This document shows, piece by piece, positions 2,874-35,046 of a DNA stretch of 64,000 nt (its first letter is position 1; each line of letters opens with the position of its first letter). Made by a program: the position numbers and the translations under genes. Location of the stretch: positions 8,359 through 72,358 of the forward strand of contig CAZOPW010000001.1 in the NCBI GenBank assembly GCA_964581795.1. The letters are read 5' to 3'. Below the pieces are notes generated by a model. That model was not told the DNA's origin, searched no databases, and was given only the letters and a program-made list of their open reading frames with translations. The stretch comes from an uncultured Thermoplasmatales archaeon. Lineage in GTDB: Archaea; Thermoplasmatota; E2; DHVEG-1.

Positions 2874-2903
2874 TAGGTGCATATCCTTATACATGTGCAG
2901 GTA
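2874..2903. promoter_or_regulatory. Hexamer array (TAGGTG CATATC CTTATA CATGTG CAGGTA) abutting TATA (AAAGGTATAAAAG on gene strand) of the 507-aa surface-protein gene
   Basis: Same repeat family; located ~90-120 nt upstream of the 2784 start codon on the opposite strand. Confidence 0.45.
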
Positions 2904-2937
2904 ATAATACAAAAAAAGTAGAAAAATATATAATTTT

Positions 2938-5640
2938 TTAGATACGTTCAATTTTTTTAATAATTCTTGATGAATATGTCCCCCATGTGCCATAAGGTAT
3001 TGAAATCTGAAATTGTACACTTACTGAATCACTCGTTCCCTGACTTGAGGCACTTCTATTCTGTAAAAGAACAATGGCATGTTGTTCTCCACAACCAGCA
3101 AATGTTGTGTTGACAAGAAGATCATCATCAACATCTGCTTCTTTCAAAAGACTAAGATTTCCACCAATCCCTATCTCGTCTGGTCCATTATTTTGAGTGA
3201 GATTATCCACAAAATATATCTTTAATCTAAAATCTGCGTTACTAATAAAATCAATCGTAAATATGTTTGATACTTCATTCATCCCTGGTGCTCCAGTTAT
3301 TTCTATTAATTCTGGTGCTTTTAGAGCTGAGTAATAATTTATACCATATTCATCCAGATAATAATTATAATTTGAAAGGTTATCATAAATTGTACAATTC
3401 AAATTCCATGAATAAGGATCATTATAACTATTTTCAGTATTATTCCATGATTCATTACTTGTTGCACAATGTGTTTGATTTCCAGGTATGAATGAAATAT
3501 TGATAATCCGAGTAGTTTGATTAATGATTTTTTCGGAGCAATTAGTTAGTTGTAGGGTTGATTCATCATCAGGCCATATCATAGTAAACTGACCTGTACC
3601 AGTCGTATTTTTGTATTGGAGGAACATATTATAATTTTCACCTGTAGTTTGGTTATATTCTGAAGTATCATCACCTTGATCGTACCAACTGGCGATATTT
3701 ATATAATCAATATCCGACCACCCATTTCGATCAGTAACATTAATTAAAAAAATATACTCCTTTCCTACATCAAGACAGCCTGTTTGATTATTCAATTTAC
3801 TCCCAGAATTATTCTGTAAATCAAATGAATTAATAACCGGATCAAACTGATGAATAGCAAATGAGAAAGTTTCATTAGTCCAATGCGTTCCATCTGTTAC
3901 ATTTATACTCCACCAATACTTGTGATCAAAAAGAGTTGCCCAAGAAGTATTTGTTACCTGATAAGTTCCATCATTAACTCCGTTTCCAGTTCCATTCGTC
4001 ACATTGAATGTTTCCCAGGTTCCTGATTGATTAGTTCTCCAAGTAATATTCATCAACTCAGGATTTGGATCAAAGATTGTTATCTCAAAGTAAGCTGGTT
4101 TTTTTGGAGTGAAAAAATCTTCATCTGATGGTGATGGATTACTAACTGTTGGAGCTGCACTTTCTTCTTTTTCAAGTTTAATAAAATTGCTTTGGTTAAA
4201 TATTGTGTTATATGAAGTTTTTATCCATGATTGATTTCTTTTCAATGTTGAAAGTCTTAACTCATCAAGTCTTCCCTCAAAAAAATTATCAGGGCTTTCA
4301 CCCTCTTCACCAATTGTAAGGTTATCATTTCCAATGATCGAAATATTACCATATGAAGGCGTTGTTTTGAAGGATTGCTCACCATTGATGTATACACTAA
4401 GATTTGTTCCATTCCCAACTCCAGCTACATGAATCCATGTATCCTGTATAATGGTATTATTAAAAGACTCTGCTATCTTAAATTCTCCATCATGAACAGC
4501 AAACTTGATATTATTCGTAGAAGATTCAAATTTGAGAACATACTGATGCTTTCCGGTTCCTTGCCATCGCCCTATAATGCCTCCATCATGAGTTAAATCC
4601 TGTACATTAATCCATGCAGATAATGTCAATTCATTACCTGTGCCACTGAAATTCAAAGTTGAATCGTATGGAATCAAGATTGAGTCATTATTGCCATCAA
4701 AATCAAATCCACCATTTACAACTGCATCAATATCATCATTTATATCCATACCAGAAGTGGTTCCATTGTTTTTATTTTTTGTACTATCACTAATATCTCC
4801 AACTCCTCCATCAATATCTTCTTCCTCCAAATGATGAATCATTACAAAATTATCATCCCATACCATAGATGGATTTTCTTGAATGCTACTATCGCTATTA
4901 TTATAATACATCCATATACTCGTATTTTCAATTGAACTTAATCTTGGAATTTTTACCCAAGCCGTAAGATTTCCTTCCGAATAGGTTTCGATTTCATGAG
5001 AATATTTTGTTGTATTGTCACTATATGAGACAAACGCTATATCATGACCGTCATTTTCTGCTTTTTGATTTAAATCAGAATCAGATATGTTTATTAAAAC
5101 AGGAAAATCTATGAGGGTACTTTGAACTTGGCTTTTATTTATCTCTATTTTTTTTCTAAAACCCCAATTATTATTCCACCAGTTAGTTGCATCATTATAG
5201 GCATATACCGTTTTGTTTCCAAAAGTAAATTCGAGAACATGTTTTCCAAGAGTATTTACCTTTGATATCTCATATACATCCATTGAAGAACTAAAATTTT
5301 TAATGATGACACAATCATCTTTCCAAAGAGTATCAAAAGTTTCTTTTTCATTTCTTATTGAATTAAAAAGGAGATCACAGGTAGAACATTTATGTTTACT
5401 CCAAGTAGTGCCTTCCACAGCTCGAATTGAAAGATCCGCGGTTCCTTCGACCGTAAATGTAACTGTCCAATAGCCACCTTTTTTTGGATAACTTTGAATA
5501 TTTATTATTCGAATTGAAGGTTTTATTTCCTCAGCCTGGGTTGAAAAAAATGATGGAGAAACATAAAAATGAATTGAAAGACTAAGCAAACTGAAAAATG
5601 CTAGTACACAAACGATTTTGTTAACCCATCGTTTTTCCAT
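2938..5640 (-). CDS. Large secreted surface protein with concanavalin-A/LamG-like lectin domain and sequon-rich repeats
   Basis: Signal peptide (IVCVLAFFSLLSLSIHF). LamG-like signature region DGNNDSILIPYDSTLNFSGTGNELTLSAWINVQDLTHDGGIIGRW. Many NxS/T sequons. C-terminal part paralogous to the 507-aa neighbour. Confidence 0.6.
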   Translation of the reverse strand: MEKRWVNKIVCVLAFFSLLSLSIHFYVSPSFFSTQAEEIKPSIRIINIQSYPKKGGYWTVTFTVEGTADLSIRAVEGTTWSKHKCSTCDLLFNSIRNEKETFDTLWKDDCVIIKNFSSSMDVYEISKVNTLGKHVLEFTFGNKTVYAYNDATNWWNNNWGFRKKIEINKSQVQSTLIDFPVLINISDSDLNQKAENDGHDIAFVSYSDNTTKYSHEIETYSEGNLTAWVKIPRLSSIENTSIWMYYNNSDSSIQENPSMVWDDNFVMIHHLEEEDIDGGVGDISDSTKNKNNGTTSGMDINDDIDAVVNGGFDFDGNNDSILIPYDSTLNFSGTGNELTLSAWINVQDLTHDGGIIGRWQGTGKHQYVLKFESSTNNIKFAVHDGEFKIAESFNNTIIQDTWIHVAGVGNGTNLSVYINGEQSFKTTPSYGNISIIGNDNLTIGEEGESPDNFFEGRLDELRLSTLKRNQSWIKTSYNTIFNQSNFIKLEKEESAAPTVSNPSPSDEDFFTPKKPAYFEITIFDPNPELMNITWRTNQSGTWETFNVTNGTGNGVNDGTYQVTNTSWATLFDHKYWWSINVTDGTHWTNETFSFAIHQFDPVINSFDLQNNSGSKLNNQTGCLDVGKEYIFLINVTDRNGWSDIDYINIASWYDQGDDTSEYNQTTGENYNMFLQYKNTTGTGQFTMIWPDDESTLQLTNCSEKIINQTTRIINISFIPGNQTHCATSNESWNNTENSYNDPYSWNLNCTIYDNLSNYNYYLDEYGINYYSALKAPELIEITGAPGMNEVSNIFTIDFISNADFRLKIYFVDNLTQNNGPDEIGIGGNLSLLKEADVDDDLLVNTTFAGCGEQHAIVLLQNRSASSQGTSDSVSVQFQISIPYGTWGTYSSRIIKKIERI

Positions 5641-5859
5641 CTTAATCCACCAATGATATTCATTTTTGCGAGGAGGATTATGTAAAAATCAATAATGACC
5701 AGTACAATAGGGTCGTCAATAAAATCTTCCAGTTAACACTGTTTACATTGAGTAACAATTACTAATTGGTTGTACCCATCTAAACCCATCCTCGTTAAGA
5801 ACTCAATTGGTGCTAGATTATTTAAACCTTACGTCAAAATATATTGTAAATAAAAAAAA

Positions 5860-7641
5860 TTAAACTTCATTAAATGTTGCAATTTCAGCTCTTTCACCCT
5901 GAAAATCACCTGTTTTTACATTTACTTTAACTGGTATCTCATTTTCTTCCTTTGAAAGAAAAACGGTATGATATGAAGCGTCATCAACACCTTTTAACCG
6001 ATTCATATAATGTTGTTCTACACCTGGTAAGCCAGAGGGCCCAACAAAATCAACCAAGTGTTTCCCAACTAGTTCATCTTCAGAATAGCCCAGCATTTGG
6101 GCAAATCGTTTATTAGCCTTTTTAATGCGCCCACGTTGGAGAACTGCAGCTTCTACAGTTAAAGAATTAAACAAATCATCTTTTTCTAAAATGCCTTCAT
6201 CTTTTTCAGATTCGGGGTTTTCTTGTTCAGGTTGATGTGTGTAGGAGGCGGGTTGTTCTAATTCATGTGTTAAAACTTTGTCATATTGTTCATTGAGAAA
6301 TGCTTCCTGTTCTGAAAGAAATTGCCTTCTTTTTTCAATTTCTTCCTCAAGTTTTTCTAGTTTTTCTCGCCAGGTGATAAATTCCTCAATTTTATGTTTA
6401 AATTCCTTTTTTTCTAGAATCATATCCGCTTCAAGTTGTTCGAGTTTGTGTTTTCTATCTGATAATTGCTGCATCATTTGTTGAAATTCTTCTCGCTTTT
6501 TTTTAATCGCTACACTGTCTCTAATAAATCTGAATTTGGAATTGAAAAAGGTTTTAATTTCATTTCTTTTAAATTGAGCGTAACTTAGTTTTTTCTCAAG
6601 TTTATCATTTTCTTTTTTTAATTTTTTATTTTCTTTTTTAAGTTTCTTTATTGTATCTTTTAAAGAATTTGAAGTTTCTTTTTTCTTTTTATCTTTCTTT
6701 AATCCTTTTTTACCATCTGATAAATTTTCTTTTTTTACTAAACGGGGGAGAAGAAATCGGTTCTTTGATTTTTCTTTATTTTTTGGTAAAAGAGTTGAAA
6801 ATCGATTTTTAATATCTAGGTTTGTTTTCTTCGTTGATTCTTCAGATATTTCATTATTAGATTGATCTAATTCCTCTTTAGTTGATTCTGTTGATTTATC
6901 ACTTGATTTTTCTTTGTTTGTTTTTGATTTTTTTGTTCTTTTTTTAATTTTAATTTTTTTCTTTGTTTTTTTTGCTGAATGGTTGTTGGATGTTTCTTTT
7001 TTCTTCCTGTTTGATGATTTTGAAGTTTTTTTAGGTTTCTCTTTGCTTTCTGTTTTTTCCTTTTTAGATGATTTTATCTTATCGCTTTTTTGGTTTGATG
7101 AATTTTCGATATCCTTTTTGGGATGATCATTTGTGCTTTTTTCTTCTTTTTGCTCCTTTTGAGATGTTTTCTGTTTTCTATCTTTATTTGTTGAAGAGGG
7201 GTTTTTTTTAGATAAAGTCGATTTTTTTTTCGGATTTGATTTCTTTTCTTCAGCTGTATTAACATCATTCAATGGAGTACCAACAAGATTCAATTGAGAT
7301 ACTCTACCATCCTCTTCGTTTTTTATTGGAAAGCCGGTCCAAGAAACCACCATTTTTTCTCCATGTGCAGTTTGAAAAGAAGTATCTATATCTACAGAAT
7401 CAGGACTGAATCGAGCTTGGTTAACAAGTTTTTGAAGTTCTTCTGCTGGTATTTGCTTAGAAAAATAAGTTGAAAATGGAACGTCAAGGACCTCTTTTTT
7501 TGATGACCCTGTGAGTTGCTCTAATGTGTCATTAAATCGTGTGATATTCCCTTTTTTATCGATTCCTACAACTAAAGTTGATCCCTGATGTAATGGATCA
7601 GTGTCACGTATGTAAATAGGCCTCTCCATCTTTCTGTTCAT
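5860..7641 (-). CDS. Dual PAS-domain protein with ~230-aa lysine/serine/glutamate-rich low-complexity linker and coiled-coil segment
   Basis: N-terminal PAS-like region (LVVGIDKKGNITRFNDTLEQLTGSSKKEVLD...). Central KKxK-rich disordered region. Heptad-like LKKENKKLKKENDKLEKKL. C-terminal PAS-like region (GRIKKANKRFAQMLGYSEDELVGKHLVDFV). Divergent from the flaC operon. Confidence 0.6.
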   Translation of the reverse strand: MNRKMERPIYIRDTDPLHQGSTLVVGIDKKGNITRFNDTLEQLTGSSKKEVLDVPFSTYFSKQIPAEELQKLVNQARFSPDSVDIDTSFQTAHGEKMVVSWTGFPIKNEEDGRVSQLNLVGTPLNDVNTAEEKKSNPKKKSTLSKKNPSSTNKDRKQKTSQKEQKEEKSTNDHPKKDIENSSNQKSDKIKSSKKEKTESKEKPKKTSKSSNRKKKETSNNHSAKKTKKKIKIKKRTKKSKTNKEKSSDKSTESTKEELDQSNNEISEESTKKTNLDIKNRFSTLLPKNKEKSKNRFLLPRLVKKENLSDGKKGLKKDKKKKETSNSLKDTIKKLKKENKKLKKENDKLEKKLSYAQFKRNEIKTFFNSKFRFIRDSVAIKKKREEFQQMMQQLSDRKHKLEQLEADMILEKKEFKHKIEEFITWREKLEKLEEEIEKRRQFLSEQEAFLNEQYDKVLTHELEQPASYTHQPEQENPESEKDEGILEKDDLFNSLTVEAAVLQRGRIKKANKRFAQMLGYSEDELVGKHLVDFVGPSGLPGVEQHYMNRLKGVDDASYHTVFLSKEENEIPVKVNVKTGDFQGERAEIATFNEV

Positions 7642-7767
7642 ACTCGTTTTCGTTAAAATTTCCCTATCCGTTTTCAGGTATACTCAATTTAATACTTATT
7701 TTAATACTTTTTGTTATTATGTGAGTCAAAGTTCCAATTTCATTTACTTAATAATGTTTTTATAGGG

Positions 7768-7791
7768 GATATGTATTAGTTTATGCAGGTG
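7768..7791. promoter_or_regulatory. Tandem hexamer array (GATATG TATTAG TTTATG CAGGTG) upstream of flaC operon; followed by conserved AGGAGGGGTA leader/SD element
   Basis: Same 6-bp periodic NANNTG/CANNTG repeat family found at six other promoters in the window. Confidence 0.5.
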
Positions 7792-7824: not shown

Positions 7825-8574
7825 ATGGGAAAATCTGATAGTGCATCAGCTGACACTTCTGACAAGGAGAAAGAAGCACCAACTGAAGATGCTTCAAAGG
7901 CTGATAAGAATGCTGAACAACCTGAAGAGGATGTTGAAAATCTTCGTAAAGTGATAAAGCTTAATGATAATGCTAACGAAGATAAGAAATCTGATGAATC
8001 AAAAAAAGACAACGAGCAAGACGAAGATGATGTAGATGGAATTGATGATTTAGTTGAAGAAGCTGAGGAAGAAGGAACTGCAGCTCCTGCATCAACACGA
8101 GAGGAACTTGAACAAAAAAGAGCGATTTTACAACGTATTAAGGATTTTGATTTTCAAATTAAAAAGAACCAACAAGATATTAATGCTGTAGGTGAAAAAA
8201 TAGCAGCATTATCAAAGGATTTGGATGATCTTGTCAGTTTATATGAAATTGTTTCTGAACAAATGAATCCTTTTGTCGGTCTATCTAAGGTTACGAAAAA
8301 AAGATTGGAATCATTGGAGAATATTACAAATGAAGTTGATACGTTAAAAGAAAAACTATCAACAATCGAGGCAGGTGGTTCTATTCAAACTTTAAAACAA
8401 GAACAACCTTCGACCATCGAACCAAGCTTTGAAATGGATTTATCCGATCAGGAGATGGAAAGAATTATTGAACTGTCATTTTCAGAACTAAATCCTGAAT
8501 TAAAGGTTGAAACCACAATTGATGATGCAATTGATGTTTTTATCGAAAATTTAAAAGCCGGGAAGGTAAATTAG
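7825..8574 (+). CDS. flaC: Archaellum accessory protein FlaC-like (acidic coiled-coil)
   Basis: First gene of the flaCDEFGHIJ-type operon. Very acidic N-terminus and coiled-coil region. Synteny with flaD/E, flaF, flaG, flaH, flaI, flaJ. Confidence 0.6.
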   Translation: MGKSDSASADTSDKEKEAPTEDASKADKNAEQPEEDVENLRKVIKLNDNANEDKKSDESKKDNEQDEDDVDGIDDLVEEAEEEGTAAPASTREELEQKRAILQRIKDFDFQIKKNQQDINAVGEKIAALSKDLDDLVSLYEIVSEQMNPFVGLSKVTKKRLESLENITNEVDTLKEKLSTIEAGGSIQTLKQEQPSTIEPSFEMDLSDQEMERIIELSFSELNPELKVETTIDDAIDVFIENLKAGKVN

Positions 8575-8584
8575 GTATTGGATT

Positions 8585-17273: not shown

Positions 17274-18018
17274 TATTATTGTAGTTTATAGATTTGATCA
17301 ACGTATGTCATTGGTGTAGTAAACGAAATCACACCAGGTGACCCAATCTCAGGAATCACACGACCAAACACATCTGTTCGTGGTGGAAGTTGTGCATCAA
17401 ACAAATATGAAGTATTTGTACAAATATACAAAATCGCTTTATCCCCACGATTCAACACGGGATTACTCGCAGTAATCGAACTATCTTCATCCTGCAACAC
17501 ACCAATCGCAAACGTTTCAGCACCAGTCGTATTCCAATGATCTTCACCAATATCAAACATATCACCAGTCACATCACCAACAAAGGAAATATTGCCATCA
17601 CCAGTATCTGTCGCATTAGTATAGTTATAACGTACCAATGATTTTGTAGCACCGTTACTAATCAAGATATAAGTATTATTCAGATCGATATCATCCGAAC
17701 CTGGTCGAACCTTCACCACAACAGCAAGCCGAGACAAATTCTCAAGCTCAGTACTATTGGATTCATTTCGAACCCATCCAGAAACCTCAAAAACAGAAAT
17801 ACCACTACTCACCTCTTTCCGAGTTTTCTGGCCAGTACTCAACGCCTGAATCTGCACGGTATTGCTTGTAGAAACCAAAACCGATGCAGCAATACCTGCA
17901 ACCAAAACCATTGCAATAAACACAATCATTGCACCAATACCAATAGCAGCTTCATGATCTCGAATAAAATTCTTAACAAACATTCTCATTTCTATTCACC
18001 TCCTTATTGCAACTCCAT
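17274..18018. repeat. 745-bp perfect direct repeat, copy 1 (covers flaB-237 gene plus junction to the upstream archaellin gene)
   Basis: Nucleotide-identical to 19933..20677 by direct comparison of both ends and of the encoded proteins. Confidence 0.85.
17276..17989 (-). CDS. flaB: Archaellin (FlaB family), 237 aa, copy 1 of an identical pair
   Basis: AAIGIGAMIVFIAMVLVAGIAASVLV N-terminus. Protein 100% identical to the 19935..20648 ORF. Confidence 0.9.
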   Translation of the reverse strand: MRMFVKNFIRDHEAAIGIGAMIVFIAMVLVAGIAASVLVSTSNTVQIQALSTGQKTRKEVSSGISVFEVSGWVRNESNSTELENLSRLAVVVKVRPGSDDIDLNNTYILISNGATKSLVRYNYTNATDTGDGNISFVGDVTGDMFDIGEDHWNTTGAETFAIGVLQDEDSSITASNPVLNRGDKAILYICTNTSYLFDAQLPPRTDVFGRVIPEIGSPGVISFTTPMTYVDQIYKLQ

Positions 18019-18699
18019 TACATCATCAATATAAGAAGCGGGGGTTGTAAAACCAACAATTCCTGGTGAACCTTCCTCACAGACGACAATACCAGATACA
18101 TCAGTTCTTGGAAGTAATCCACCAAATACTTCGTCTGTATTTATTCCTAAAATCACGTGATCTCCAAAATTAATAATTGGATTGTCTCTTGTGCATGAAT
18201 CATCAGCATCATTTAAAACAATTACACTGAATGAATTTGCACTACCATATGTGCCACTGCCAAATACATCTCCGTTTACATTCGAAGAGTTAGTGTATGT
18301 ATCATCTGATCTCTCGTATGCTAATATATATTTCTCTGATGAATCTGATATTTCAATTATTGTTTCATGTAAATCAATATCTGGAGATCCTGCTTTTGAA
18401 GTTATCTCTATAGCCATTTTATCAATTGAACCAGAAGTATTATGACCTTCAATAGCTTCAACTTTCAATCCACTTGCTACTTCTGCGATAGTCTCCTGAC
18501 CAGTTTTTAACGCCTGCATTTCCAACCGCGTACTTGTTTGGATAAGTACAGATGCGGCAATACCTGCCACAAGAACCATGGCAATAAAAATAATCATTGC
18601 ACCTATCCCAATTGCTGCGGTATCTATCTTTAAATTCTTTCCTAATTTTCTACATCCCATCATCGGAACATCCCTCCTAAAAGTTACGTCTTGTAACAA
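18004..18699 (-). CDS. flaB: Archaellin (FlaB family), 231 aa
   Basis: AAIGIGAMIIFIAMVLVAGIAASVLI N-terminus; close paralog of 20663..21319. Confidence 0.9.
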   Translation of the reverse strand: MLQDVTFRRDVPMMGCRKLGKNLKIDTAAIGIGAMIIFIAMVLVAGIAASVLIQTSTRLEMQALKTGQETIAEVASGLKVEAIEGHNTSGSIDKMAIEITSKAGSPDIDLHETIIEISDSSEKYILAYERSDDTYTNSSNVNGDVFGSGTYGSANSFSVIVLNDADDSCTRDNPIINFGDHVILGINTDEVFGGLLPRTDVSGIVVCEEGSPGIVGFTTPASYIDDVMELQ

Positions 18700-18775
18700 T
18701 TAGGTTGTTTCTATCAACAATAAAACAAACGGTCTTATTATACCTTTTTTTTAGATAGCAATACAAGTGTTAAGG

Positions 18776-18799
18776 CAAATGCATATGCATATGAATATG
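18776..18799. promoter_or_regulatory. Tandem hexamer array (CAAATG CATATG CATATG AATATG) abutting TATA box of the 18699 archaellin promoter
   Basis: Same 6-bp periodic CANNTG-type repeat family. TATA-like GGTATAATAAG immediately downstream (gene strand). AGGAGGG SD before the ATG. Confidence 0.5.
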
Positions 18800-19932: not shown

Positions 19933-20677
19933 TATTATTGTAGTTTATAGATTTGATCAACGTATGTCATTGGTGTAGTAAACGAAATCACACCAGGTGA
20001 CCCAATCTCAGGAATCACACGACCAAACACATCTGTTCGTGGTGGAAGTTGTGCATCAAACAAATATGAAGTATTTGTACAAATATACAAAATCGCTTTA
20101 TCCCCACGATTCAACACGGGATTACTCGCAGTAATCGAACTATCTTCATCCTGCAACACACCAATCGCAAACGTTTCAGCACCAGTCGTATTCCAATGAT
20201 CTTCACCAATATCAAACATATCACCAGTCACATCACCAACAAAGGAAATATTGCCATCACCAGTATCTGTCGCATTAGTATAGTTATAACGTACCAATGA
20301 TTTTGTAGCACCGTTACTAATCAAGATATAAGTATTATTCAGATCGATATCATCCGAACCTGGTCGAACCTTCACCACAACAGCAAGCCGAGACAAATTC
20401 TCAAGCTCAGTACTATTGGATTCATTTCGAACCCATCCAGAAACCTCAAAAACAGAAATACCACTACTCACCTCTTTCCGAGTTTTCTGGCCAGTACTCA
20501 ACGCCTGAATCTGCACGGTATTGCTTGTAGAAACCAAAACCGATGCAGCAATACCTGCAACCAAAACCATTGCAATAAACACAATCATTGCACCAATACC
20601 AATAGCAGCTTCATGATCTCGAATAAAATTCTTAACAAACATTCTCATTTCTATTCACCTCCTTATTGCAACTCCAT
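19933..20677. repeat. 745-bp perfect direct repeat, copy 2
   Basis: Identical to 17274..18018; offset 2659 bp. Confidence 0.85.
19935..20648 (-). CDS. flaB: Archaellin (FlaB family), 237 aa, copy 2 of the identical pair
   Basis: Protein identical to the 17276..17989 ORF. Confidence 0.9.
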   Translation of the reverse strand: MRMFVKNFIRDHEAAIGIGAMIVFIAMVLVAGIAASVLVSTSNTVQIQALSTGQKTRKEVSSGISVFEVSGWVRNESNSTELENLSRLAVVVKVRPGSDDIDLNNTYILISNGATKSLVRYNYTNATDTGDGNISFVGDVTGDMFDIGEDHWNTTGAETFAIGVLQDEDSSITASNPVLNRGDKAILYICTNTSYLFDAQLPPRTDVFGRVIPEIGSPGVISFTTPMTYVDQIYKLQ

Positions 20678-21319
20678 CCAAGCATCAATGTATGATGCAG
20701 GAGTAGTAAAACCGACAATTCCTGCTGCACCTTCTTCACATATAACTAATCCAGATACATCAGTTCTTGGTAATAAACCACTGTTTACTGTAAAGACTGA
20801 ACTTGTATCAATGCCTAAAATAACGTGGTCTCCATCATTTATTACAGGTGTTGTACTTGTGCATGATTCATCAGCATCTTGCAAAACTGTAATTCCAAAC
20901 GCAGTTGAGGATCCCCAAGCTCCATTAGTAGATAGGTCTCCATCAATCGATGTTGAGTTTTTATAATCAGATCCATAACCGAGTACATATTTGTTTGTTG
21001 AATCGGATATTTCAATTATTGCCTGTTCTAAATCTATATCTGGAGCGCCTGCTTTTGGTCTAATTTCAATTGCCATTTTGGTAATTTTACCTGAAGCATT
21101 GTATCCTTCAACACCTTCAACAGTAATACCTGAGGATACTTCAGCGATTGTTTCTTGACCCGTTTTTAATGCTTGCATCTCTAAACGTGTACTTGTTTGC
21201 ACCAGCACCGATGCAGCAATTCCAGCAACAAGAACCATGGCGATAAAAATTATCATGGCTCCGATACCAATTGCTGCCATATTTTTTCTATTTGTAAGGT
21301 ATTTAGTCTTTCGTCCCAT
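20663..21319 (-). CDS. flaB: Archaellin (FlaB family), 218 aa, first gene of the array
   Basis: AAIGIGAMIIFIAMVLVAGIAASVLV N-terminus. Strong AGGAGGGGTAAT SD 12 nt upstream. TATA and hexamer array further upstream. Confidence 0.9.
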   Translation of the reverse strand: MGRKTKYLTNRKNMAAIGIGAMIIFIAMVLVAGIAASVLVQTSTRLEMQALKTGQETIAEVSSGITVEGVEGYNASGKITKMAIEIRPKAGAPDIDLEQAIIEISDSTNKYVLGYGSDYKNSTSIDGDLSTNGAWGSSTAFGITVLQDADESCTSTTPVINDGDHVILGIDTSSVFTVNSGLLPRTDVSGLVICEEGAAGIVGFTTPASYIDAWMELQ

Positions 21320-21408
21320 CCTTCTATTACCCCTCCTGACAGTTACACAATTGCAACCTTTCAGAGTGCTACCCCAATATTCCTCTCTGTTTTTATATAC
21401 TTTATTTG

Positions 21409-21438
21409 CATGTGAATATGCAGGTGAATGTGTAGGTG
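21409..21438. promoter_or_regulatory. Tandem hexamer array (CATGTG AATATG CAGGTG AATGTG TAGGTG) immediately upstream of TATA box of the archaellin array promoter
   Basis: Five consecutive 6-bp NANNTG units. TATA (TATATAAA on the gene strand, ~21393..21402) directly adjacent. Confidence 0.55.
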
Positions 21439-23546: not shown

Positions 23547-23576
23547 TATATGCATGTGCATTTGTTGATGGATATG
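23547..23576. promoter_or_regulatory. Tandem hexamer array (TATATG CATGTG CATTTG TTGATG GATATG) followed by TATA-like TTATATATC
   Basis: Same repeat family; upstream of the 23763 ORF. Confidence 0.45.
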
Positions 23577-23762
23577 CAAGTTATATATCTGGTAATTATT
23601 TTTTGTGGGTTTATGTGTAATTATTGTGTAATACATTACACATCACTAATTTTTCAATTCTATAATTAGAGATAATAGTTTTATTTAGGCTTATGTTCCT
23701 TTCATAATAGTGGTATTTTTTCATTATGATCATTTTTTCAACAAGAATTAAAAAGAAGTAAT

Positions 23763-24251
23763 GTGGCAAACAATATCACGATGGAAGGAAAGAAGGATAT
23801 AACTAAGGCAATTACTAAGATACGAAGTCATCCTCATTTCCTTGTTTTTATGAGTATTTTAGTAATTAGTGTCTTAAGTAATAGTATTATGATATCATAT
23901 ATGGGAGTTTCCTCATTTATTGATTCATTATCTAATCCAGAAGAATATAAAATCATCAGTCACAAATATATATTAAACAAACAGCATGAAGCCGATAGAT
24001 TTTGTATTATCGCTCAAAAACAATCACAGACACTATCATCAATTAATACTTCAGACCAACTCTATATTCATTATAGCAATGATTGTTCTTCTTACTATTT
24101 ATTATCAAATCAATCAGAAAAACCAGATCAATCGCTCCAGATTGCGGGCAAAGTGGTTTCCATTATTGAATCTGATCCGCTATCTACTTTATCTTTTATA
24201 TGGTGGCAAAAAAGTATTCAGTTTATTGAAATTTTGAAAAGTAAAAAATAA
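23763..24251 (+). CDS. Small membrane protein (single TM), hypothetical
   Basis: GTG start in ORF track; alternative ATG at 23781. Hydrophobic helix FLVFMSILVISVLSNSIMI. Confidence 0.35.
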   Translation: MANNITMEGKKDITKAITKIRSHPHFLVFMSILVISVLSNSIMISYMGVSSFIDSLSNPEEYKIISHKYILNKQHEADRFCIIAQKQSQTLSSINTSDQLYIHYSNDCSSYYLLSNQSEKPDQSLQIAGKVVSIIESDPLSTLSFIWWQKSIQFIEILKSKK

Positions 24252-25034: not shown

Positions 25035-25076
25035 CAGGTGCATATGCAGGTGTATATGTTGATGCTTATTCAAGTG
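25035..25076. promoter_or_regulatory. Tandem hexamer array (CAGGTG CATATG CAGGTG TATATG TTGATG CTTATT CAAGTG) abutting TATA (AGTATAAATAA) of the wHTH regulator gene
   Basis: Best-conserved copy of the repeat family; ~45 nt upstream of the 25134 start. Confidence 0.55.
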
Positions 25077-25133
25077 GGGATTTAGTATAAATAATAGTAG
25101 TTTCATACATTACTAAAGCGGTGAGGGTTTGGG

Positions 25134-25478
25134 ATGCACGAGCCGGATAATGAAAATATTTCAGCAGAGGTAAAGCGCCCTTTGGTAGTTCGGGCGTTAC
25201 GCAGAAGTAACGTACGAAAAAAGATAGCAGAATATCTTTTTGATATTAGTCCAAGTTATAGTTATACTTCTGAAATAGCCTATCATGTAAAAACGACTCC
25301 AACTAATGTGATAGGAGCTATTAGAGGGATGAAATCACGATATCGAGAGGATGAGTCATTAATAGGACTTGATCTTATCGAAGAAAGGAAGGGCGGATCA
25401 AACATTAAACTCTATGGTCTTACTCCTTTTGGAAAAGAGATTCTAGAGTCAATGTTAAAGGAGAAAAATAATCGTTAA
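25134..25478 (+). CDS. Small winged-helix transcription regulator (114 aa)
   Basis: wHTH-like core (IAEYLFDISPSYSYTSEIAYHVKTTPTNVIGAIRGMKSRY). Positioned between the archaellin and che clusters, with the hexamer array in its own promoter. Confidence 0.55.
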   Translation: MHEPDNENISAEVKRPLVVRALRRSNVRKKIAEYLFDISPSYSYTSEIAYHVKTTPTNVIGAIRGMKSRYREDESLIGLDLIEERKGGSNIKLYGLTPFGKEILESMLKEKNNR

Positions 25479-28367: not shown

Positions 28368-28386
28368 CTTTTTCCCTTCAAATAAA

Positions 28387-29001: not shown

Positions 29002-29026
29002 ACCTTGTTTCCTTCTAATACAATTT

Positions 29027-31096: not shown

Positions 31097-31097
31097 C

Positions 31098-32576: not shown

Positions 32577-32603
32577 AACGTATCCCTCTAAGAACAGAGG
32601 AAG

Positions 32604-33014
32604 TTATCCCATTATTTTTCCAACTTCTTCCAAAACCTGGGGAGCCTGAAATGGTTTTACAATATATCCCTTGGCACCTGCTTCAATTGCTTCCTTAACT
32701 TTTGTCTCTTGTCCTACAGCAGTCACCATGATTATGTTTGCATTCCCATCTTCTGCAACTATATTTTTTACTGCTTCTATTCCTTCCATATTCGGCATTA
32801 CTATATCCATAGTGACAAGGTCTGGTTTATGTTTCTTGTATGCCTCAATTGCTTCCAGTCCATCGGATGCTTCAGCAACAATTTCAAATCCCTTAGGTTT
32901 AAGGATATTTGCTAGCATCATCCGCATGAATTTTGTATCATCTACTAACATCACTTTTTTTCCCATACGACCCTCCTCACCGCAAAAGGTGGTGTCGTTT
33001 ATCAATTTTTCCAT
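32604..33014 (-). CDS. cheY: Chemotaxis response regulator CheY
   Basis: VMLVDDTKFMR...VTMDIVMP...YIVKP. Real start possibly the internal Met (MGKKVML, ~32966). Confidence 0.9.
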   Translation of the reverse strand: MEKLINDTTFCGEEGRMGKKVMLVDDTKFMRMMLANILKPKGFEIVAEASDGLEAIEAYKKHKPDLVTMDIVMPNMEGIEAVKNIVAEDGNANIIMVTAVGQETKVKEAIEAGAKGYIVKPFQAPQVLEEVGKIMG

Positions 33015-33054
33015 ATTTTTTATTTTATTCTTTTGAATTTAGTTTTTTTATATT

Positions 33055-34005
33055 TTACTTAAGATTCTTTTTCATTTGTTCAACAATGTGTTTTGTTCCC
33101 TTTTCTGTTAGTTCATATTCCTGATCACCAGAAACACGAAGTACCTCTTTTGATAAGAGATCATCAACAATACTCTGTAATTCCTCCTCAGAAATCCCTA
33201 GCATCTCTGTTGCCATAGATGCATCAATATCACTAGTATACATCATTTGAACAAGCATGAACTGTTGTTCATTTAATTCAATCGTTTCTGATTCCTTTGC
33301 TTTACTTTCAGAGATGAGTTGAACGTATGAACCCATAAAGGAAATTAATGGACGTTTGCCAGTAATCAAAGTTGAAATAATCGTTCCTTCTTTTTGATAT
33401 TTAAGTGTTAAAGAGGAATCTTGTTTATCTTGTAAATTAATTTCAAAATCATCCAAATTTAGTAAATCGATTGTTTCTTTTTGTTTCTTGCCTAACCATT
33501 CTGCAGCAAGTATAACATTATTTTTTTTAATGAACACATTTCCTTCAACAGGTTTTTTATCTAAAAGGATTTTTCCACCTTTACTAAATGGACTTACGAA
33601 CTCTATTGTTTTTCCATTTGTTAAAAGAATGCATAAAAATTTTTTAATTTTCTTTGCATTCTCATGCGAGGTTGATAATAAACAGGCTTTTTCCTCATTA
33701 TCATCTGAGATATAATGGACTGGTATAATTGTCGTTGAACCTAGAGCTTTTCGCCAGAGTTCAACTTTCCTATCCACATCAGTAATTTTATCATATGGCA
33801 AAATCTTAATATTTTCTTCATCTGGTTTATTATCTTTCTCTGGAGCCAATAGTATTTTTTTCGTTGTTAATGTTAAAAAACCTGGAGTAAGCCTTTTCTC
33901 ATTATTTTTATCCTTTAAATTTGAGAGTTTGTAAATGAATTTTAAATATGAATTTTGGATCAATGCTTTTTCTTCAGCCATCCTACCGTAACCTTTCTTT
34001 TCCAA
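33055..34005 (-). CDS. Putative CheF-like archaeal chemotaxis adaptor (first gene of che operon)
   Basis: Position (cheF-cheY-cheB-cheA-cheC-cheD-cheR is the canonical archaeal order). ~316 aa. No bacterial-type che domain. C-terminal wHTH-like segment. Confidence 0.45.
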   Translation of the reverse strand: MEKKGYGRMAEEKALIQNSYLKFIYKLSNLKDKNNEKRLTPGFLTLTTKKILLAPEKDNKPDEENIKILPYDKITDVDRKVELWRKALGSTTIIPVHYISDDNEEKACLLSTSHENAKKIKKFLCILLTNGKTIEFVSPFSKGGKILLDKKPVEGNVFIKKNNVILAAEWLGKKQKETIDLLNLDDFEINLQDKQDSSLTLKYQKEGTIISTLITGKRPLISFMGSYVQLISESKAKESETIELNEQQFMLVQMMYTSDIDASMATEMLGISEEELQSIVDDLLSKEVLRVSGDQEYELTEKGTKHIVEQMKKNLK

Positions 34006-34252
34006 AGAATTTTCGATTGGAGTAAATCGCGGTGAAAGTAAATGGATTATTCATTTTTTAATTGATTTATCTCTTTATTGGAAATTCTTTTATCAATCCC
34101 ATCTCCACTTATCATTCATCCTCGCATATTCCATCCGTAACTGAAAATAGAAAACTCCTATTTAAAGTTACATCATAAATTATGTTTATTAAAAGAAAGA
34201 TTGTAGTAACTAATCATTTAATGAGATAAAAAGAAAAGGATAATTATCCTGA

Positions 34253-34744
34253 TTATTTATTTTCTCTTTGTTGCTGAATAACCCATAATCCAATTGGCCT
34301 AACATCAGGAGTTGATGCCATCTTTGATTTTGTCCAATCCATTAGCTCTTCTTTTGAAAGATGCTGACAGCAGTGTTCGCAAGCAAAAAATTCATCAGCA
34401 ACAACTAAACCAGACAAATTTTTCCCTAACACTATGTCTTTTTCACAAACATCACAGATTACTGTAGATTCATCTGTGAGTCCAATAACCTCAGAATTCA
34501 TAATCGAAACGGGTTCTGAATTTTCAATATGTGAAATTGTATCTTTTATATTTTGATTATCATTAATTTTTTTGGATTTATTATTATCTTGCTTTTTTGA
34601 GATTTTTTTAGTTTTTTTAGATCCAATCTCAGTACTTTCTTTCGTACTATCATTCATCGAATCATCAGAGGTAGTTTTATTAGAAGTAATTTTCTTAAGT
34701 TTTTGAATATGAGATATAATCTCATCAATATCTTTATTTTCCAT
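34253..34744 (-). CDS. Lysine-rich protein with C-terminal zinc-ribbon (CxxC...CxxC)
   Basis: CDVCEKD...CEHCCQH cysteine pairs; basic low-complexity N-terminus. Confidence 0.4.
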   Translation of the reverse strand: MENKDIDEIISHIQKLKKITSNKTTSDDSMNDSTKESTEIGSKKTKKISKKQDNNKSKKINDNQNIKDTISHIENSEPVSIMNSEVIGLTDESTVICDVCEKDIVLGKNLSGLVVADEFFACEHCCQHLSKEELMDWTKSKMASTPDVRPIGLWVIQQQRENK

Positions 34745-35013
34745 ATGTTCAATCCCCTGAAATTAATGAAAACACTATACCCTCTCACTTTTAAAGATTT
34801 TTCTTTTATAATAAAATTTACTGATTCCTACTAAATTTTAATTAGAATATTCTGATGAGGCAGAGTAATTCTTTATAATCCTTTACATAATAATTTATAT
34901 TAATTTCAAAATTATCATAATGATATATTAAAAATATTGAACAGATTTCATTATTTTTCGACAATTTTAAATAGCTTAATTTTAATTTGTCAAAAAGACC
35001 TAATGCTACTTTG

Positions 35014-35046
35014 GATGTGGATTTGGGATGAATCAATTGCAGGAGA
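35014..35046. promoter_or_regulatory. Degenerate hexamer array (GATGTG GATTTG GGATGA ... TGCAGG) followed by TATA-like AATTATATTTAAA upstream of the MCP gene
   Basis: Weaker member of the same repeat family. Confidence 0.35.

What the first reader, a model, noticed from the sequence alone, without database searches (positions are those of the whole stretch)
2874..35046. Recurrent tandem-hexamer (CANNTG-type) cis-element fused to the upstream edge of the TATA box at seven motility-related promoters
At 2874..2903, 7768..7791, 18776..18799, 21409..21438, 23547..23576, 25035..25076 and 35014..35046 there are 4-7 back-to-back 6-bp units of the form NANNTG. Dominant units are CAGGTG, CATATG, CATGTG, AATATG and TTGATG. 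Example at 21409: CATGTG AATATG CAGGTG AATGTG TAGGTG. Example at 25035: CAGGTG CATATG CAGGTG TATATG TTGATG. Each array is followed within ~5-15 bp by an A/T-rich TATA-like box. The downstream genes are the flaC accessory operon, two archaellin promoters, an MCP, a small wHTH regulator, a small membrane protein and a large glycosylated surface protein. I did not find the array upstream of the che operon (34006..34252), cheV (40686..41057) or any housekeeping gene in the window. The placement, upstream of BRE/TATA as tandem hexamers, is the architecture of activator sites such as the Methanococcus EarA sites that turn on fla transcription. The hexamer sequence here is different from those, so this would be a distinct regulon signature. 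It also ties a surface adhesin-like protein and an MCP to archaellum expression.
Basis: partly seen in the sequence, partly recalled or inferred. Interest (0 to 1): 0.85.

Follow-up and report, generated by a model that had tools for sequence, protein, structure and literature searches.

The report
EarA-box arrays at archaellum-regulon promoters
The repeated "hexamers" are real promoter elements, but they are this uncultured Thermoplasmatota archaeon's version of the already known binding boxes of EarA, the archaellum activator, whose gene lies in the same window behind the strongest array.

Summary
The arrays are real at five of the seven sites (18776, 21403, 23547, 25029, 2870). A sixth (7770-7790) is real but assigned to the wrong gene. 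The seventh (35014, MCP) is not a site.

The "small wHTH" gene 25134-25478 is an EarA-family protein (Pfam PF07381, E 8e-26).

I trained a weight matrix only on earA promoters of distant relatives. Its consensus is TGnATATG(C/T)AG(G/A)T(A/G)nATA, and it picks out exactly these window promoters. Its core is the reverse complement of the known EarA boxes (TACATA in Methanococcus, A(C/G)(C/G)TACA(T/C) in Thermococcales).

In relatives the arrays recur, at fixed distances from the TATA box, in four places:
[quoted passage not shown] - in front of homologues of a 162-aa membrane protein,
- in front of homologues of a 507-aa sequon-rich surface protein.

The "flaC" boxes lie downstream of the flaC TATA and have the canonical geometry for the divergent PAS gene.

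Verdict: a new member of a known system. The new details are likely autoregulation, extra regulon members and an expansion of EarA paralogues. No binding or transcript data exist.

The parts
25134..25478 (+). earA: gene for a 114-aa EarA-family winged-helix regulator, the presumed binder of the boxes
   Evidence: Pfam PF07381 EarA-like, E 8.1e-26, residues 18-105 matching profile positions 1-88 of 90. 2165 homologues, some named by NCBI 'archaellum operon transcriptional activator EarA family protein'. It lies between the arl and che clusters, as described for earA homologues (PMC10117864).
25029..25076 (+). Array at the earA promoter (ATATTG CAGGTG CATATG CAGGTG TATATG TTGATG CTTATT CAAGTG). 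Orientation is inverted relative to the archaellin promoters.
   Evidence: Best matrix score in the window, 25.2 bits at 25039-25056. Almost invariant in a relative that is about 82% identical (L003/L005, alignment A1). The same arrangement occurs at nearly all earA paralogues.
25081..25093 (+). TATA-like box of earA (TTTAGTATAAATA)
   Evidence: Read from the sequence. Invariant in A1. The promoter assignment is inferred; there are no transcript data.
21403..21438 (-). Array at the main archaellin promoter. On the gene strand it reads ACCTACAcattcACCTGCAtattcACATGCA, three boxes 12 nt apart.
   Evidence: 22.7 and 18.9 bits. Core boxes at 21405, 21417 and 21429. The same three-box arrangement at -118/-106/-94 with TATA at -79 occurs in L010; L012, L025 and L092 keep the two proximal boxes with the same 6-nt gap to the TATA box.
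21390..21400 (-). TATA box of the main archaellin promoter (GTATATAAAAA on the gene strand), 7 nt after the proximal TGCA core
   Evidence: The promoter assignment is inferred.
20663..21319 (-). First archaellin gene of the cluster (target)
   Evidence: Pfam Arch_flagellin, E 1.7e-27.
18776..18799 (-). Array at the second archaellin promoter (CAAATG CATATG CATATG AATATG), nearly palindromic
   Evidence: 21.5 bits. Lies in native intergenic DNA also present in L001, which lacks the neighbouring IS. L092 has a weaker counterpart of 12.6 bits.
18734..18752 (-). TATA box (GGTATAATAAG on the gene strand) preceded by a run of 8 A, a weak-BRE-like tract. About 32 nt from the array.
18004..18699 (-). 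Archaellin gene (target). The true start is probably 12 codons downstream of the listed TTG.
   Evidence: Pfam Arch_flagellin, E 7.5e-28. The gene call in L001 is 219 aa.
23547..23581 (+). Array upstream of the 162-aa membrane-protein gene. Same orientation as at earA.
   Evidence: 12.8-14.2 bits. Core boxes at 23549 and 23573. All 7 homologue promoters score 12 bits or more, whereas the DUF1614, w70, w174, w147 and w175 promoters score nothing. The TG phase is kept in L003/L005 (A2).
23763..24251 (+). Gene for a 162-aa protein with one N-terminal hydrophobic segment (target). No family assigned.
2870..2902 (-). Array upstream of the 507-aa surface-protein gene. On the gene strand it reads TACCTGCAcatgtataaggataTGCACCTACA, then aaaaagg, then TATAAAAG.
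   Evidence: Core boxes of 13.5, 10.8 and 8.6 bits. The ACCT(A/G)CA-N7-TATA arrangement is conserved in homologue promoters L103, L105, L106, L107 (a different genomic context) and L108 (same contig as L092); L104 carries a 15.9-bit matrix hit about 95 nt upstream of the probable true start.
2857..2866 (-). TATA box of the 507-aa gene (GGTATAAAAG on the gene strand) with an A-run at 2867-2872
1261..2784 (-). Gene for a 507-aa protein (target). It has an N-terminal hydrophobic anchor, 28 N-X-S/T sequons and a predicted all-beta multi-domain fold.
   Evidence: No Pfam or NCBIfam family. Sequon count and hydrophobic segment. AlphaFold model pLDDT 74.5. No PDB fold match at E of 0.001 or better; the weak hits are Ig-like adhesins and pilins. 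The named homologues are all from Thermoplasmatota MAGs; most carry no name.
7770..7791 (-). Two boxes in the PAS/flaC intergenic region. On the minus strand they read CCACC-TGCA-N8-TACA-N7-TATAAAAAC.
   Evidence: Contains the perfect 9-mer TATGCAGGT, which occurs only 4 times in the window, 3 of them in these promoters. The pattern T[AG]CA-N8-T[AG]CA-N7-nATWWAA occurs only here and at the main archaellin promoter. Conserved in L087, L089, L105 and L106; degenerate in L091, L092/L108 and L103.
7757..7764 (.). TATA element shared by the divergent PAS (minus strand) and flaC (plus strand) genes. It reads TTTTTATA on the plus strand and TATAAAAA on the minus strand.
   Evidence: Which direction or directions it fires in is not known.
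5860..7641 (-). Gene for a 593-aa PAS-domain protein. It is the gene for which the 7770-7791 boxes have canonical geometry (candidate target).
   Evidence: Pfam PAS_9, E 5.5e-19. The divergent PAS-flaC arrangement is conserved in relatives.

Best explanation
The arrays are EarA boxes. Each box is about 9 nt (gene-strand form ACCT(A/G)CATA, core T(A/G)CA), repeated two to four times with a 12-bp period.

**Inferred binder.** The boxes are probably bound by the EarA-family winged-helix protein encoded at 25134-25478, and possibly by EarA paralogues encoded elsewhere in the genome.

**Canonical promoters.** These are the two archaellin promoters, the promoter of the 507-aa surface protein, and the PAS side of the PAS/flaC intergenic region.
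- At the main archaellin, 507-aa and PAS-side promoters the proximal core ends 7 nt before a (G)TATA(T/A)AAA box. At the second archaellin promoter (18776) the array sits about 32 nt from the TATA box.
- The intervening BRE position is A-rich at the second archaellin and 507-aa promoters, not on the PAS side.
- By analogy with Methanococcus maripaludis, bound EarA would recruit TFB (or TBP) to a weak BRE and switch the promoter on. This step is inferred.

**Inverted promoters.** At earA itself and at the 162-aa membrane-protein gene the array is inverted. In earA promoters of relatives it sits a fixed 20-22 nt (or 33-34 nt) from the TATA box. This points to autoregulation; the sign is unknown, and positive feedback is my guess.

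**What is shown and what is inferred.** Shown: the motif, its phasing, its conservation, its restriction to these promoter classes, and its identity with the known EarA box core. Inferred: binding by EarA, activation, and transcription start sites.
For: 1. **The regulator is EarA-family.** Pfam PF07381, E 8.1e-26, 90.1 bits against a cut-off of 22. Homologues carry the NCBI EarA family name.
2. **Independent motif model.**
   - In 69 non-redundant earA promoters of relatives, the hexamers TATGCA, ATATGC, ATGCAG and GCAGGT are 17-22 times enriched over intergenic background. TATGTA is enriched 10 times and TACATA 7 times.
   - The matrix derived from these promoters has G8 at 0.95 and A10 at 0.98.
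   - It scores the window's earA, archaellin, w162, flaC/PAS and w507 promoters highest among intergenic DNA. The window has 44 hits of 9 bits or more, against 9.1 +/- 3.1 in shuffles.
3. **Match to published boxes.** Matrix columns 5-10, TATG(C/T)A, are the reverse complement of TACATA. Columns 6-13 are the reverse complement of A(C/G)(C/G)TACA(T/C) (PMC10665913; PMC5512572).
4. **Restriction to promoters.**
   - Hits of 15 bits or more occur at 0.90 per kb in intergenic DNA and 0.054 per kb in coding DNA, across 1.1 Mb.
   - Among intergenic regions not adjacent to earA, 18 have a hit of 15 bits or more against 0.7 in shuffles, and 14 have a hit of 18 bits or more against 0.
5. **Target classes in relatives.**
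   - Archaellin promoters: 16 of 24 score 15 bits or more; in the multi-gene clusters held, the most upstream gene carries it.
   - w162 promoters: 7 of 7 score 12 bits or more.
   - All other promoters: 2.3% of 519.
   - w507 homologues: 7 of 7.
6. **Phasing.**
   - Box spacing is 12, 24 or 36 nt.
   - The box-to-TATA gap is 6 nt in the main archaellin promoters, and 16-30 nt (most often 30) in the others.
   - The gap is 20-22 nt in 37 of 57 earA promoters.
7. **Orientation.** It is opposite to the earA-type orientation at 16 of 16 archaellin promoters.
8. **A-rich BRE tracts.** They sit next to the TATA box, as in the M. maripaludis and Thermococcales fla promoters.
Against: - There are no binding, transcript or start-site data for this organism. 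Every promoter element is inferred from sequence.
- The association of the motif with earA genes is guilt by association. These genomes carry 2-5 EarA paralogues, so which protein binds which array cannot be told.
- The inverted orientation and different spacing at earA and w162 have no experimental precedent that I found.
- The array at 18776 is about 32 nt from its TATA box, not adjacent.
- The flaC operon, which EarA controls in Methanococcus as part of one fla operon, has no upstream array here.
- NCBIfam gave no hit for the protein.
- The AlphaFold model of the protein was too poor to confirm the fold (pLDDT 51.7).
Confidence: 0.8

Rival explanations
1. The arrays are bound not by the EarA encoded in the window but by another factor. 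This could be one of the EarA paralogues encoded elsewhere in the genome, or an unrelated regulator that co-occurs with earA. The local EarA would then play a different role or only a partial one.
For: Related MAGs carry 2-5 EarA paralogues, and nearly all have similar arrays. The closest MAG (GSL_GSL3510_11) has a second paralogue, L045. Box variants differ slightly between paralogue classes: CAGAT is commoner in the KaiC/PdxS-linked class and CAGGT in the arl/che-linked class.
Against: The arl/che-linked EarA sits next to the archaellin and w162 arrays in conserved synteny. In many relatives it shares one array with a divergent archaellin gene. The box core equals the experimentally defined EarA box.
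Confidence: 0.12
2. This is a distinct, non-EarA regulon signature. On this view the tandem CANNTG hexamers are recognised by a different class of protein, and the resemblance to EarA sites is architectural only.
Against: The register is arbitrary. The most conserved positions straddle the hexamer junction, TG|CA. The period is 12, not 6. On the gene strand the archaellin boxes match the Thermococcales EarA motif at 8/8 and 7/8 positions. The motif is the defining feature of earA promoters across 69 relatives.
Confidence: 0.04
3. At earA, at w162 and at the flaC side of the 7770-7791 boxes, the sites act as operators for repression rather than activation. At earA this would be autorepression. 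At the flaC transcription start it would be occlusion.
For: The orientation is inverted and the spacing to the TATA box differs at earA and w162. At w162 the proximal box abuts a TATA-like TTATATAT. With respect to flaC the boxes lie between the TATA box and the ribosome-binding site.
Against: The fixed 20-22 nt gap leaves BRE and TATA free at earA promoters. The known EarA activity is activation. No data discriminate between the two. This rival concerns the sign of regulation at a subset of sites and is compatible with the main explanation.
Confidence: 0.3
4. The arrays are compositional noise or a simple repeat in AT-rich intergenic DNA.
For: The genome is 33.6% G+C, and CATATG/TATATG-like words are AT-rich. 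Look-alikes exist in coding DNA at 6527, 9577 and 56528.
Against: Dinucleotide-preserving shuffles of the intergenic DNA give 0.055 arrays against 7 observed. The arrays are conserved in position, phase and orientation in relatives with 50-80% protein identity.
Confidence: 0.01

Closest known systems
EarA and its boxes at the fla (arl) promoter of Methanococcus maripaludis (Ding et al. 2016, 2017; PMC5512572)
   Same: - The regulator belongs to the same Pfam family.
- Several copies of a short box with a TACATA-type core lie immediately upstream of BRE/TATA of the promoter that drives the archaellin genes.
- The BRE is A-rich and weak-looking.
   Different: - Here the box is longer, ACCT(A/G)CATA, and strictly phased at 12 bp.
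- The archaellins are transcribed separately from flaC-J, and flaC has no upstream array.
- The earA gene itself, a 162-aa membrane-protein gene and a 507-aa surface-protein gene also carry arrays.
- Nothing here is experimentally tested.
Predicted EarA motif of Thermococcales, A(C/G)(C/G)TACA(T/C), one to three adjacent copies 9 nt upstream of the BRE of arlB0 (Stoeckl et al. 2023, PMC10665913)
   Same: - The motif is nearly identical on the archaellin gene strand: ACCTACAC matches 8/8 and ACCTGCAT 7/8.
- There are one to three adjacent copies at a fixed distance from BRE/TATA.
- The motif occurs only at the first archaellin gene of the cluster.
   Different: - TGCA is preferred over TACA (C 0.67, T 0.32 at the variable position).
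- The proximal box is closer to the TATA box (7 nt from the core).
- That paper reports the motif absent from the other arl promoters and does not mention earA autoregulation. Here arrays occur at earA and at non-arl genes.
Ptr2 upstream activating sites of Methanocaldococcus jannaschii (Ouhammouch et al. 2003, 2005, as cited in PMC5512572)
   Same: Multiple activator sites lie just upstream of BRE/TATA and work by recruiting a general transcription factor.
   Different: Ptr2 is an Lrp-family protein with palindromic sites, and it recruits TBP. It is unrelated in sequence to EarA and its motif is different. It is an analogy only.
ArnR/ArnR1 activation of the archaellin promoter in Sulfolobus acidocaldarius (PMC6396743, listed; summarised in PMC13286277)
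   Same: A dedicated activator acts on boxes at the archaellin promoter, while the accessory-gene promoter is not controlled by it. This parallels the situation here, where the archaellin promoters have arrays and flaC does not.
   Different: The ArnR proteins are membrane-bound, belong to a different family and occur in Crenarchaeota. There is no sequence relation.

Membership tests
EarA protein family (euryarchaeal archaellum regulator A, Pfam PF07381) | Sequence match to the family profile above the curated threshold | tested here: met
   PF07381 EarA-like, E 8.1e-26, 90.1 bits against a cut-off of 22, covering profile positions 1-88 of 90. NCBIfam gave no hit at E of 0.01 or better.
EarA protein family (euryarchaeal archaellum regulator A, Pfam PF07381) | Winged helix-turn-helix fold | tested here: inconclusive
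   The AlphaFold model from a shallow alignment had pLDDT 51.7 and was not used. No solved relative was found by sequence.
EarA protein family (euryarchaeal archaellum regulator A, Pfam PF07381) | Gene located next to or between the arl and che gene clusters (PMC10117864) | tested here: met
   earA at 25134-25478 lies between the archaellin genes (16425-21319) and cheR-cheY-cheA... (25636-34005).
EarA protein family (euryarchaeal archaellum regulator A, Pfam PF07381) | Adjacent predicted methyltransferase gene (stated as 'always' in PMC10117864) | tested here: inconclusive
   The downstream convergent neighbour is CheR, a methyltransferase (25636-26481). It belongs to the che operon, and whether it is the methyltransferase meant in the review is unclear.
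EarA protein family (euryarchaeal archaellum regulator A, Pfam PF07381) | Required for transcription of the archaellin operon; binds the boxes in vitro | not testable with these tools
   Needs EMSA, ITC or genetics, or heterologous complementation of the M. maripaludis earA deletion as in Ding et al. 2017.
EarA box (cis-element) | Short box with a TACATA-type core | tested here: met
   Matrix columns 5-10 are TATG(C/T)A, the reverse complement of T(A/G)CATA. TACATA and TATGTA are themselves 7 and 10 times enriched in earA promoters.
EarA box (cis-element) | Several copies immediately upstream of BRE/TATA of the first archaellin gene | tested here: met
   Three boxes at -118/-106/-94 with TATA at -79 in the window and L010; L012, L025 and L092 keep the two proximal boxes with the same 6-nt gap. 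In the multi-gene clusters held (L010, L012) downstream archaellin genes lack them, though L013 and L085, like the window, have arrays at two archaellin promoters.
EarA box (cis-element) | Associated weak, A-rich BRE | tested here: met
   A-runs directly 5' of the TATA box: aaaaaaaaGGTATAATAAG (18004 gene), caaaaaaGGTATAAAAG (w507), gcgaaaaaa...TTTAAAA (paralogue-linked archaellin-like genes). That these tracts are functionally weak is inferred from PMC5512572.
EarA box (cis-element) | Removing the boxes abolishes transcription | not testable with these tools
   No genetic system or transcript data exist for this uncultured lineage.
   The dominant spacing is 12 nt (102 pairs) against 6 nt (19 pairs). 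The two most conserved columns (G 0.95, A 0.98) flank the unit junction.

The most novel reading that the evidence does not exclude
In this Thermoplasmatota clade EarA may no longer be a single-target archaellum switch. It may have become an expanded family of 2-5 paralogues per genome, wired together through a shared 12-bp-phased box.

- Nearly every paralogue gene carries the array at a fixed distance from its TATA box, which suggests auto- and cross-regulation.
- The regulon extends beyond the archaellins to a conserved sequon-rich surface protein, a small membrane protein and a PAS sensor.
- At the PAS/flaC intergenic region the boxes flank a single shared TATA element on the flaC side. 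EarA binding could therefore set the direction of the pre-initiation complex, favouring the PAS gene over the flaC-J accessory operon.
Probability: 0.25. Interest if true: 0.6.

Novelty: new member of a known kind. Interest (0 to 1): 0.38.

Why it matters
EarA is so far the only transcription factor known for the euryarchaeal archaellum. Its sites have been defined experimentally in one species and predicted in one order.

This analysis adds several points:
- The same box is used in uncultured, sediment-dwelling Thermoplasmatota.
- There is now a sharper model of the site: a 9-nt box, a 12-bp phase and a fixed distance to the TATA box.
- EarA probably controls its own gene, plus at least two non-archaellum genes for envelope proteins.
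- The accessory flaC-J operon is not under the same upstream control.
- There is a concrete, testable regulon for organisms that cannot yet be grown.
- The EarA family has been expanded in this lineage.

It is not a new kind of regulatory element.

Tried and rejected
- **Structure of the EarA protein.** The AlphaFold model from a 29-sequence alignment had pLDDT 51.7, too poor for fold comparison. A sequence search of the PDB found no relative. NCBIfam gave no hit.
- **Function of the 507-aa target.** Pfam and NCBIfam found nothing. The model was reasonable (pLDDT 74.5), but Foldseek against the PDB gave no match at E of 0.001 or better, only generic Ig-like adhesin, pilin and Fab hits with TM below 0.25. 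"Surface beta-sandwich protein" is as far as it goes.
- **Rfam on the whole window.** No family matched.
- **RNAalifold on the archaellin leader.** It returned only the 4-bp CUCU:AGGA helix, because the MAFFT alignment misregisters the inner hairpin. Single-sequence folds were used instead.
- **MCP site at 35014.** There is no matrix or core hit. The only relative covering it is the same species, so conservation could not be tested. Rejected as a site.
- **flaC as a target.** Checked in 8 relatives. The boxes lie downstream of the TATA box and are absent from the more distant relatives. I re-assigned them tentatively to the PAS gene.
- **Array as part of the IS element or of the archaellin duplication.** Rejected. 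The 18776 array is present in L001, which lacks the IS. The 84%-identical duplication stops before the promoters.
- **Other genes next to arrays in relatives.** These include EamA transporters, FolE2, an ArsP permease and RNase PH. Most, though not all, are the divergent neighbours of earA paralogues, so they were not counted as regulon members.

Full report
**1. The window**

The window is 64 kb with 33.6% G+C. It carries a complete archaeal motility region:
- flaC, flaD/E, flaF, flaG, flaH, two flaI-like genes and flaJ on the plus strand (7825-16372);
- five archaellin genes on the minus strand (16425-21319), interrupted by an IS;
- a few small genes;
- a 114-aa gene at 25134-25478;
- the che operon (25636-34005, minus strand);
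- an MCP gene (35152-37641) and cheW.

The closest sequences are metagenome-assembled genomes labelled Thermoplasmatota, Thermoplasmatales or Thermoplasmata. A 68-kb ENA contig (L001) is 99% identical over most of the shared region (96.7% across the flaI-to-archaellin part) and lacks the IS.

At 18776, 21403/21409, 23547 and 25029/25035 there are four to six consecutive units fitting NANNTG. The sites at 2874 and 7768 are much weaker in that description, with two perfect units each. The site at 35014 has two units followed by non-periodic sequence.

Such runs are far above chance in dinucleotide-preserving shuffles:
- Whole window, four units with at most one miss: 10 places against 0.89 expected.
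- Whole window, five units with at most one miss: 3 against 0.02.
- The 5.5 kb of intergenic DNA alone: 7 against 0.055.

So this is not AT-rich background.

**3. The key finding: the "small wHTH regulator" is EarA**

The 114-aa protein matches Pfam PF07381 (EarA-like) with E 8.1e-26 and 90.1 bits against a gathering score of 22. The match covers almost the whole profile. It has 2165 homologues, and NCBI names several of them [quoted passage not shown].

EarA is the activator of the fla/arl operon in Methanococcus maripaludis. [quoted passage not shown] The box is quoted as TACATA. In Thermococcales a MEME motif A(C/G)(C/G)TACA(T/C) occurs in one to three adjacent copies 9 nt upstream of the BRE of the first archaellin gene (PMC10665913).

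**4. An independent motif model**

I fetched 80 loci around earA homologues from one genome per species. All are Thermoplasmatota MAGs, and many MAGs contribute two to five paralogous loci.

Nearly every one of these earA genes has an array of the type (C/T)ATATG CAGGT(A/G) upstream of a TTTATTAA/TTTATAAA box.

I built the model from 69 non-redundant upstream regions, leaving out the window and its close relatives L001-L010.
- The most enriched hexamers are TATGCA (19-fold), ATATGC, ATGCAG (22-fold), CATATG, TATGTA (10-fold), TGCAGG and GCAGGT. TACATA is enriched 7-fold.
- An iterated matrix from 150 sites reads T G n A T A T G (C/T) A G (G/A) T (A/G) n A T A. The strongest columns are G8 (0.95) and A10 (0.98).

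Three consequences follow.
The CANNTG register is therefore arbitrary.
- Columns 5-10 are the reverse complement of T(A/G)CATA, and columns 6-13 are the reverse complement of the Thermococcales motif. The element is thus the known EarA box, not a different one.
- Same-strand spacing of the 9-nt core peaks sharply at 12 nt (102 pairs), 24 nt (40) and 36 nt (12), with only 19 pairs at 6 nt and 11 at 18 nt. The unit is a box repeated every 12 bp.

**5. What the independent model says about the seven sites**

- earA promoter: 25.2 bits.
- Main archaellin promoter: 22.7 and 18.9 bits.
- Second archaellin promoter: 21.5 bits.
- 162-aa gene: 14.2 and 12.8 bits.
- PAS/flaC region: 12.8 bits, containing the perfect 9-mer TATGCAGGT.
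- 507-aa gene: 11.5 bits, with core boxes of 13.5, 10.8 and 8.6 bits.
- MCP region: maximum -2.6 bits, with no core box at all.

The window has 44 hits of 9 bits or more, against 9.1 +/- 3.1 in shuffles. The exact 9-mer TATGCAGGT occurs four times on both strands of the window, three of them at 7782, 21417 and 25043. No intergenic hit of 12 bits or more lies outside 2.8-25.1 kb.

**6. Conservation and target classes in relatives**

Across 1.1 Mb of loci, hits of 15 bits or more occur at 0.90 per kb in intergenic DNA and 0.054 per kb in coding DNA. When the earA promoters used for training are left out, 18 intergenic regions have a hit of 15 bits or more against 0.7 in shuffles. Fourteen have a hit of 18 bits or more against none in shuffles.

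By promoter class:
- Archaellin genes: 16 of 24 score 15 bits or more. In the clusters with several archaellin promoters the most upstream gene carries the array. In L010 and L012 the downstream ones do not, but L013, L085 and the window have arrays at two promoters.
- Homologues of the 162-aa gene: 7 of 7 score 12 bits or more.
- The neighbouring w174, w147, w175 and w70 genes: 0%. The two DUF1614 promoters available also score nothing.
- All other promoters: 2.3% of 519. Most, though not all, of these are the divergent neighbours of earA paralogues.

For the 507-aa protein I fetched further homologues. L103, L105, L106, L108 (the same contig as L092) and L107, which sits in a different genomic context, all have ACCT(A/G)CA-N7-(G)TATAAAAG or an equivalent. 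In L107 this takes the form of three TGCA cores 12 nt apart followed by N7-TATTTAAG. In L104 the array lies inside an ORF call that is over-extended at its 5' end. That makes 7 of 7.

In a relative that is about 82% identical (L003/L005), the earA array, TATA box and leader are almost invariant. The w162 array is partly changed but keeps its TG phase.

**7. Geometry**

On the gene strand the main archaellin promoter reads ACCTACAcattcACCTGCAtattcACATGCAaataaagTATATAAAAA. Boxes lie at -118, -106 and -94 and the TATA box at -79. L010 has the identical three-box arrangement, and L012, L025 and L092 keep the two proximal boxes with the same 6-nt gap. The proximal core ends 7 nt before the TATA box, so the box abuts the BRE position.

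The 507-aa promoter has the same layout: TACA-aaaaagg-TATAAAAG, with a distal box 24 nt upstream.

The second archaellin promoter has a palindrome-like CATATGCATATGCATATG array about 32 nt from GGTATAATAAG, which is preceded by eight A residues.

A-runs in the BRE position recur in relatives. They recall the seven-adenine weak BRE of M. maripaludis.

Relative to the archaellin genes the matrix orientation is "opposite" in 16 of 16 cases. This means the gene strand carries the T(A/G)CATA form, as the published motifs are printed.

At earA and w162 the array has the other orientation. In earA promoters the gap between the proximal core and TTTATWAA is 20-22 nt in 37 of 57 cases, with a second mode at 33-34 nt, one period further.

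In six relatives (L034, L035, L038, L042, L064, L086) earA and an archaellin-like gene are divergent and share one array. This shared arrangement explains the two orientations. In the window the two promoters are 4 kb apart, yet each keeps its own array, which argues that both uses are under selection.

**8. The "flaC" site**

With respect to flaC the only TATA-like element (TTTTTATA, 7757-7764) lies upstream of the boxes.

On the minus strand the same DNA reads CCACC-TGCA-N8-TACA-N7-TATAAAAAC. The pattern T[AG]CA-N8-T[AG]CA-N7-nATWWAA occurs only twice in the whole window, here and at the main archaellin promoter.

This arrangement is conserved in L087, L089, L105 and L106, even though the bases between the cores change. 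It is degenerate in L091, L092/L108 and L103. More distant relatives (L095-L098) have no box in front of flaC.

I conclude three things:
- The boxes are probably real.
- Their canonical target is the divergent PAS-domain gene (5860-7641), or the TATA element is shared.
- The flaC-J operon is not under an upstream EarA array.

Whether EarA bound there also hinders flaC initiation cannot be told.

**9. Mechanism proposed**

- Shown: the motif, its identity with the EarA box core, its 12-bp phasing, its fixed distance to the TATA box, and its restriction to earA, first-archaellin, w162 and w507 (plus PAS) promoters across relatives.
- Inferred from M. maripaludis and P. furiosus: EarA binds the boxes and recruits TFB/TBP to a weak BRE/TATA, switching on the archaellin genes and, here, the w507 gene.
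- Inferred from position only: EarA regulates its own gene and w162. The sign is unknown.
- Not resolvable: which paralogue binds where.

**10. Targets outside the archaellum**

- The 507-aa protein has an N-terminal hydrophobic segment and 28 N-X-S/T sequons. Its predicted fold is all-beta and multi-domain (pLDDT 74.5). It has no family assignment and no significant structural match. A cell-surface protein is a reasonable reading; "adhesin" is not shown.
- The 162-aa protein has one hydrophobic segment and no family.

**11. Novelty**

The protein family, the box core, the position next to the BRE and the weak-BRE logic are all known. As far as the searchable literature goes, the new points are:
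- the occurrence and exact form of the element in Thermoplasmatota,
- the 12-bp phasing,
- arrays on earA genes themselves,
- the additional targets,
- the absence of an upstream array at flaC,
- the expansion of EarA paralogues.

I rate it a new member of a known kind, of moderate interest.

Noticed in passing
window 21325-21375 (minus strand), leader of the archaellin gene 20663-21319: The 5' leader is conserved. An outer helix pairs CUCU with the Shine-Dalgarno AGGAG, and it encloses an inner hairpin whose sequence co-varies between relatives (GGUUGCA/UGUAACU in the window, GGUUGC/GCAACU in L010, GGUUAUA/UAUAACU in L012 and L092, GUUG/CAAC in L085). This may be translational or stability control of the major archaellin mRNA. 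No Rfam family matches.
   Followed up: partly
window 23625-23642: A perfect palindrome, TGTGTAATACATTACACA, lies about 45 nt downstream of the 23547 array, in the roughly 190-nt stretch before the 162-aa gene. It is conserved (TTGTGTAAT-N-ATTACACA) in L003, L005, L008, L010 and L013 and is unique in the window. It may be an operator for a second regulator, or an RNA hairpin.
   Followed up: partly
L011-L086 (earA loci of related MAGs): The EarA family is expanded to 2-5 paralogues per MAG (for example five loci from CSMAG_2770). Two contexts recur. In one, two KaiC-like ATPase genes and a DUF7504 gene lie upstream and PdxS/PdxT downstream, sometimes with a divergent archaellin-like gene. In the other, earA is followed by genes for a radical-SAM protein, the proteasome alpha subunit, SBDS and Rrp4. 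Nearly all paralogues carry the array. CAGAT-type boxes are commoner in the first class, and CAGGT-type boxes in the arl/che-linked class.
   Followed up: partly
window 18848-19844: An IS of about 1 kb with an rve-type integrase (18891-19532, minus strand) is inserted between two archaellin genes, 48 bp from the 18776 array. It is absent from the 99%-identical contig L001. Its terminal inverted repeats start with TGTAG.
   Followed up: partly
window 11261-12892 and 12922-14598: Two tandem FlaI/ArlI-like secretion ATPase genes sit in the fla accessory operon, where archaella usually have one. The pair is conserved in most relatives that extend far enough (L090, L091, L092, L095, L096, L098, L099, L102); L094 has a single copy followed directly by flaJ.
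   Followed up: no
window 17274-18618 versus 19933-21277: A pair of archaellin genes is duplicated in tandem at about 84% nucleotide identity. The duplication ends before the two promoters, whose arrays differ: the array at 18776 is CATATG-rich and the one at 21403 is CAGGTG-containing.
   Followed up: partly
window 56526-56551, inside the 53280-57134 (minus strand) AglB/STT3 oligosaccharyltransferase gene: A look-alike array within coding DNA (TGCATATGCAGATCCATG, 16.4 bits; GATCTG GACATG GATCTG CATATG on the minus strand). It is probably chance, though an internal or antisense promoter was not excluded.
   Followed up: no
window 2938-5640 and 1261-2784 (minus strand); L103, L105, L106, L108: The gene order PAS, then a 900-aa LamG/DUF2341 protein (42 sequons), then the 507-aa protein, then a convergent NosD/PKD protein of about 1150 aa, is conserved next to the fla operon. 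Part of the 900-aa protein is similar to the 507-aa protein (29% identity in L092). This looks like a surface-protein module linked to the archaellum cluster.
   Followed up: no
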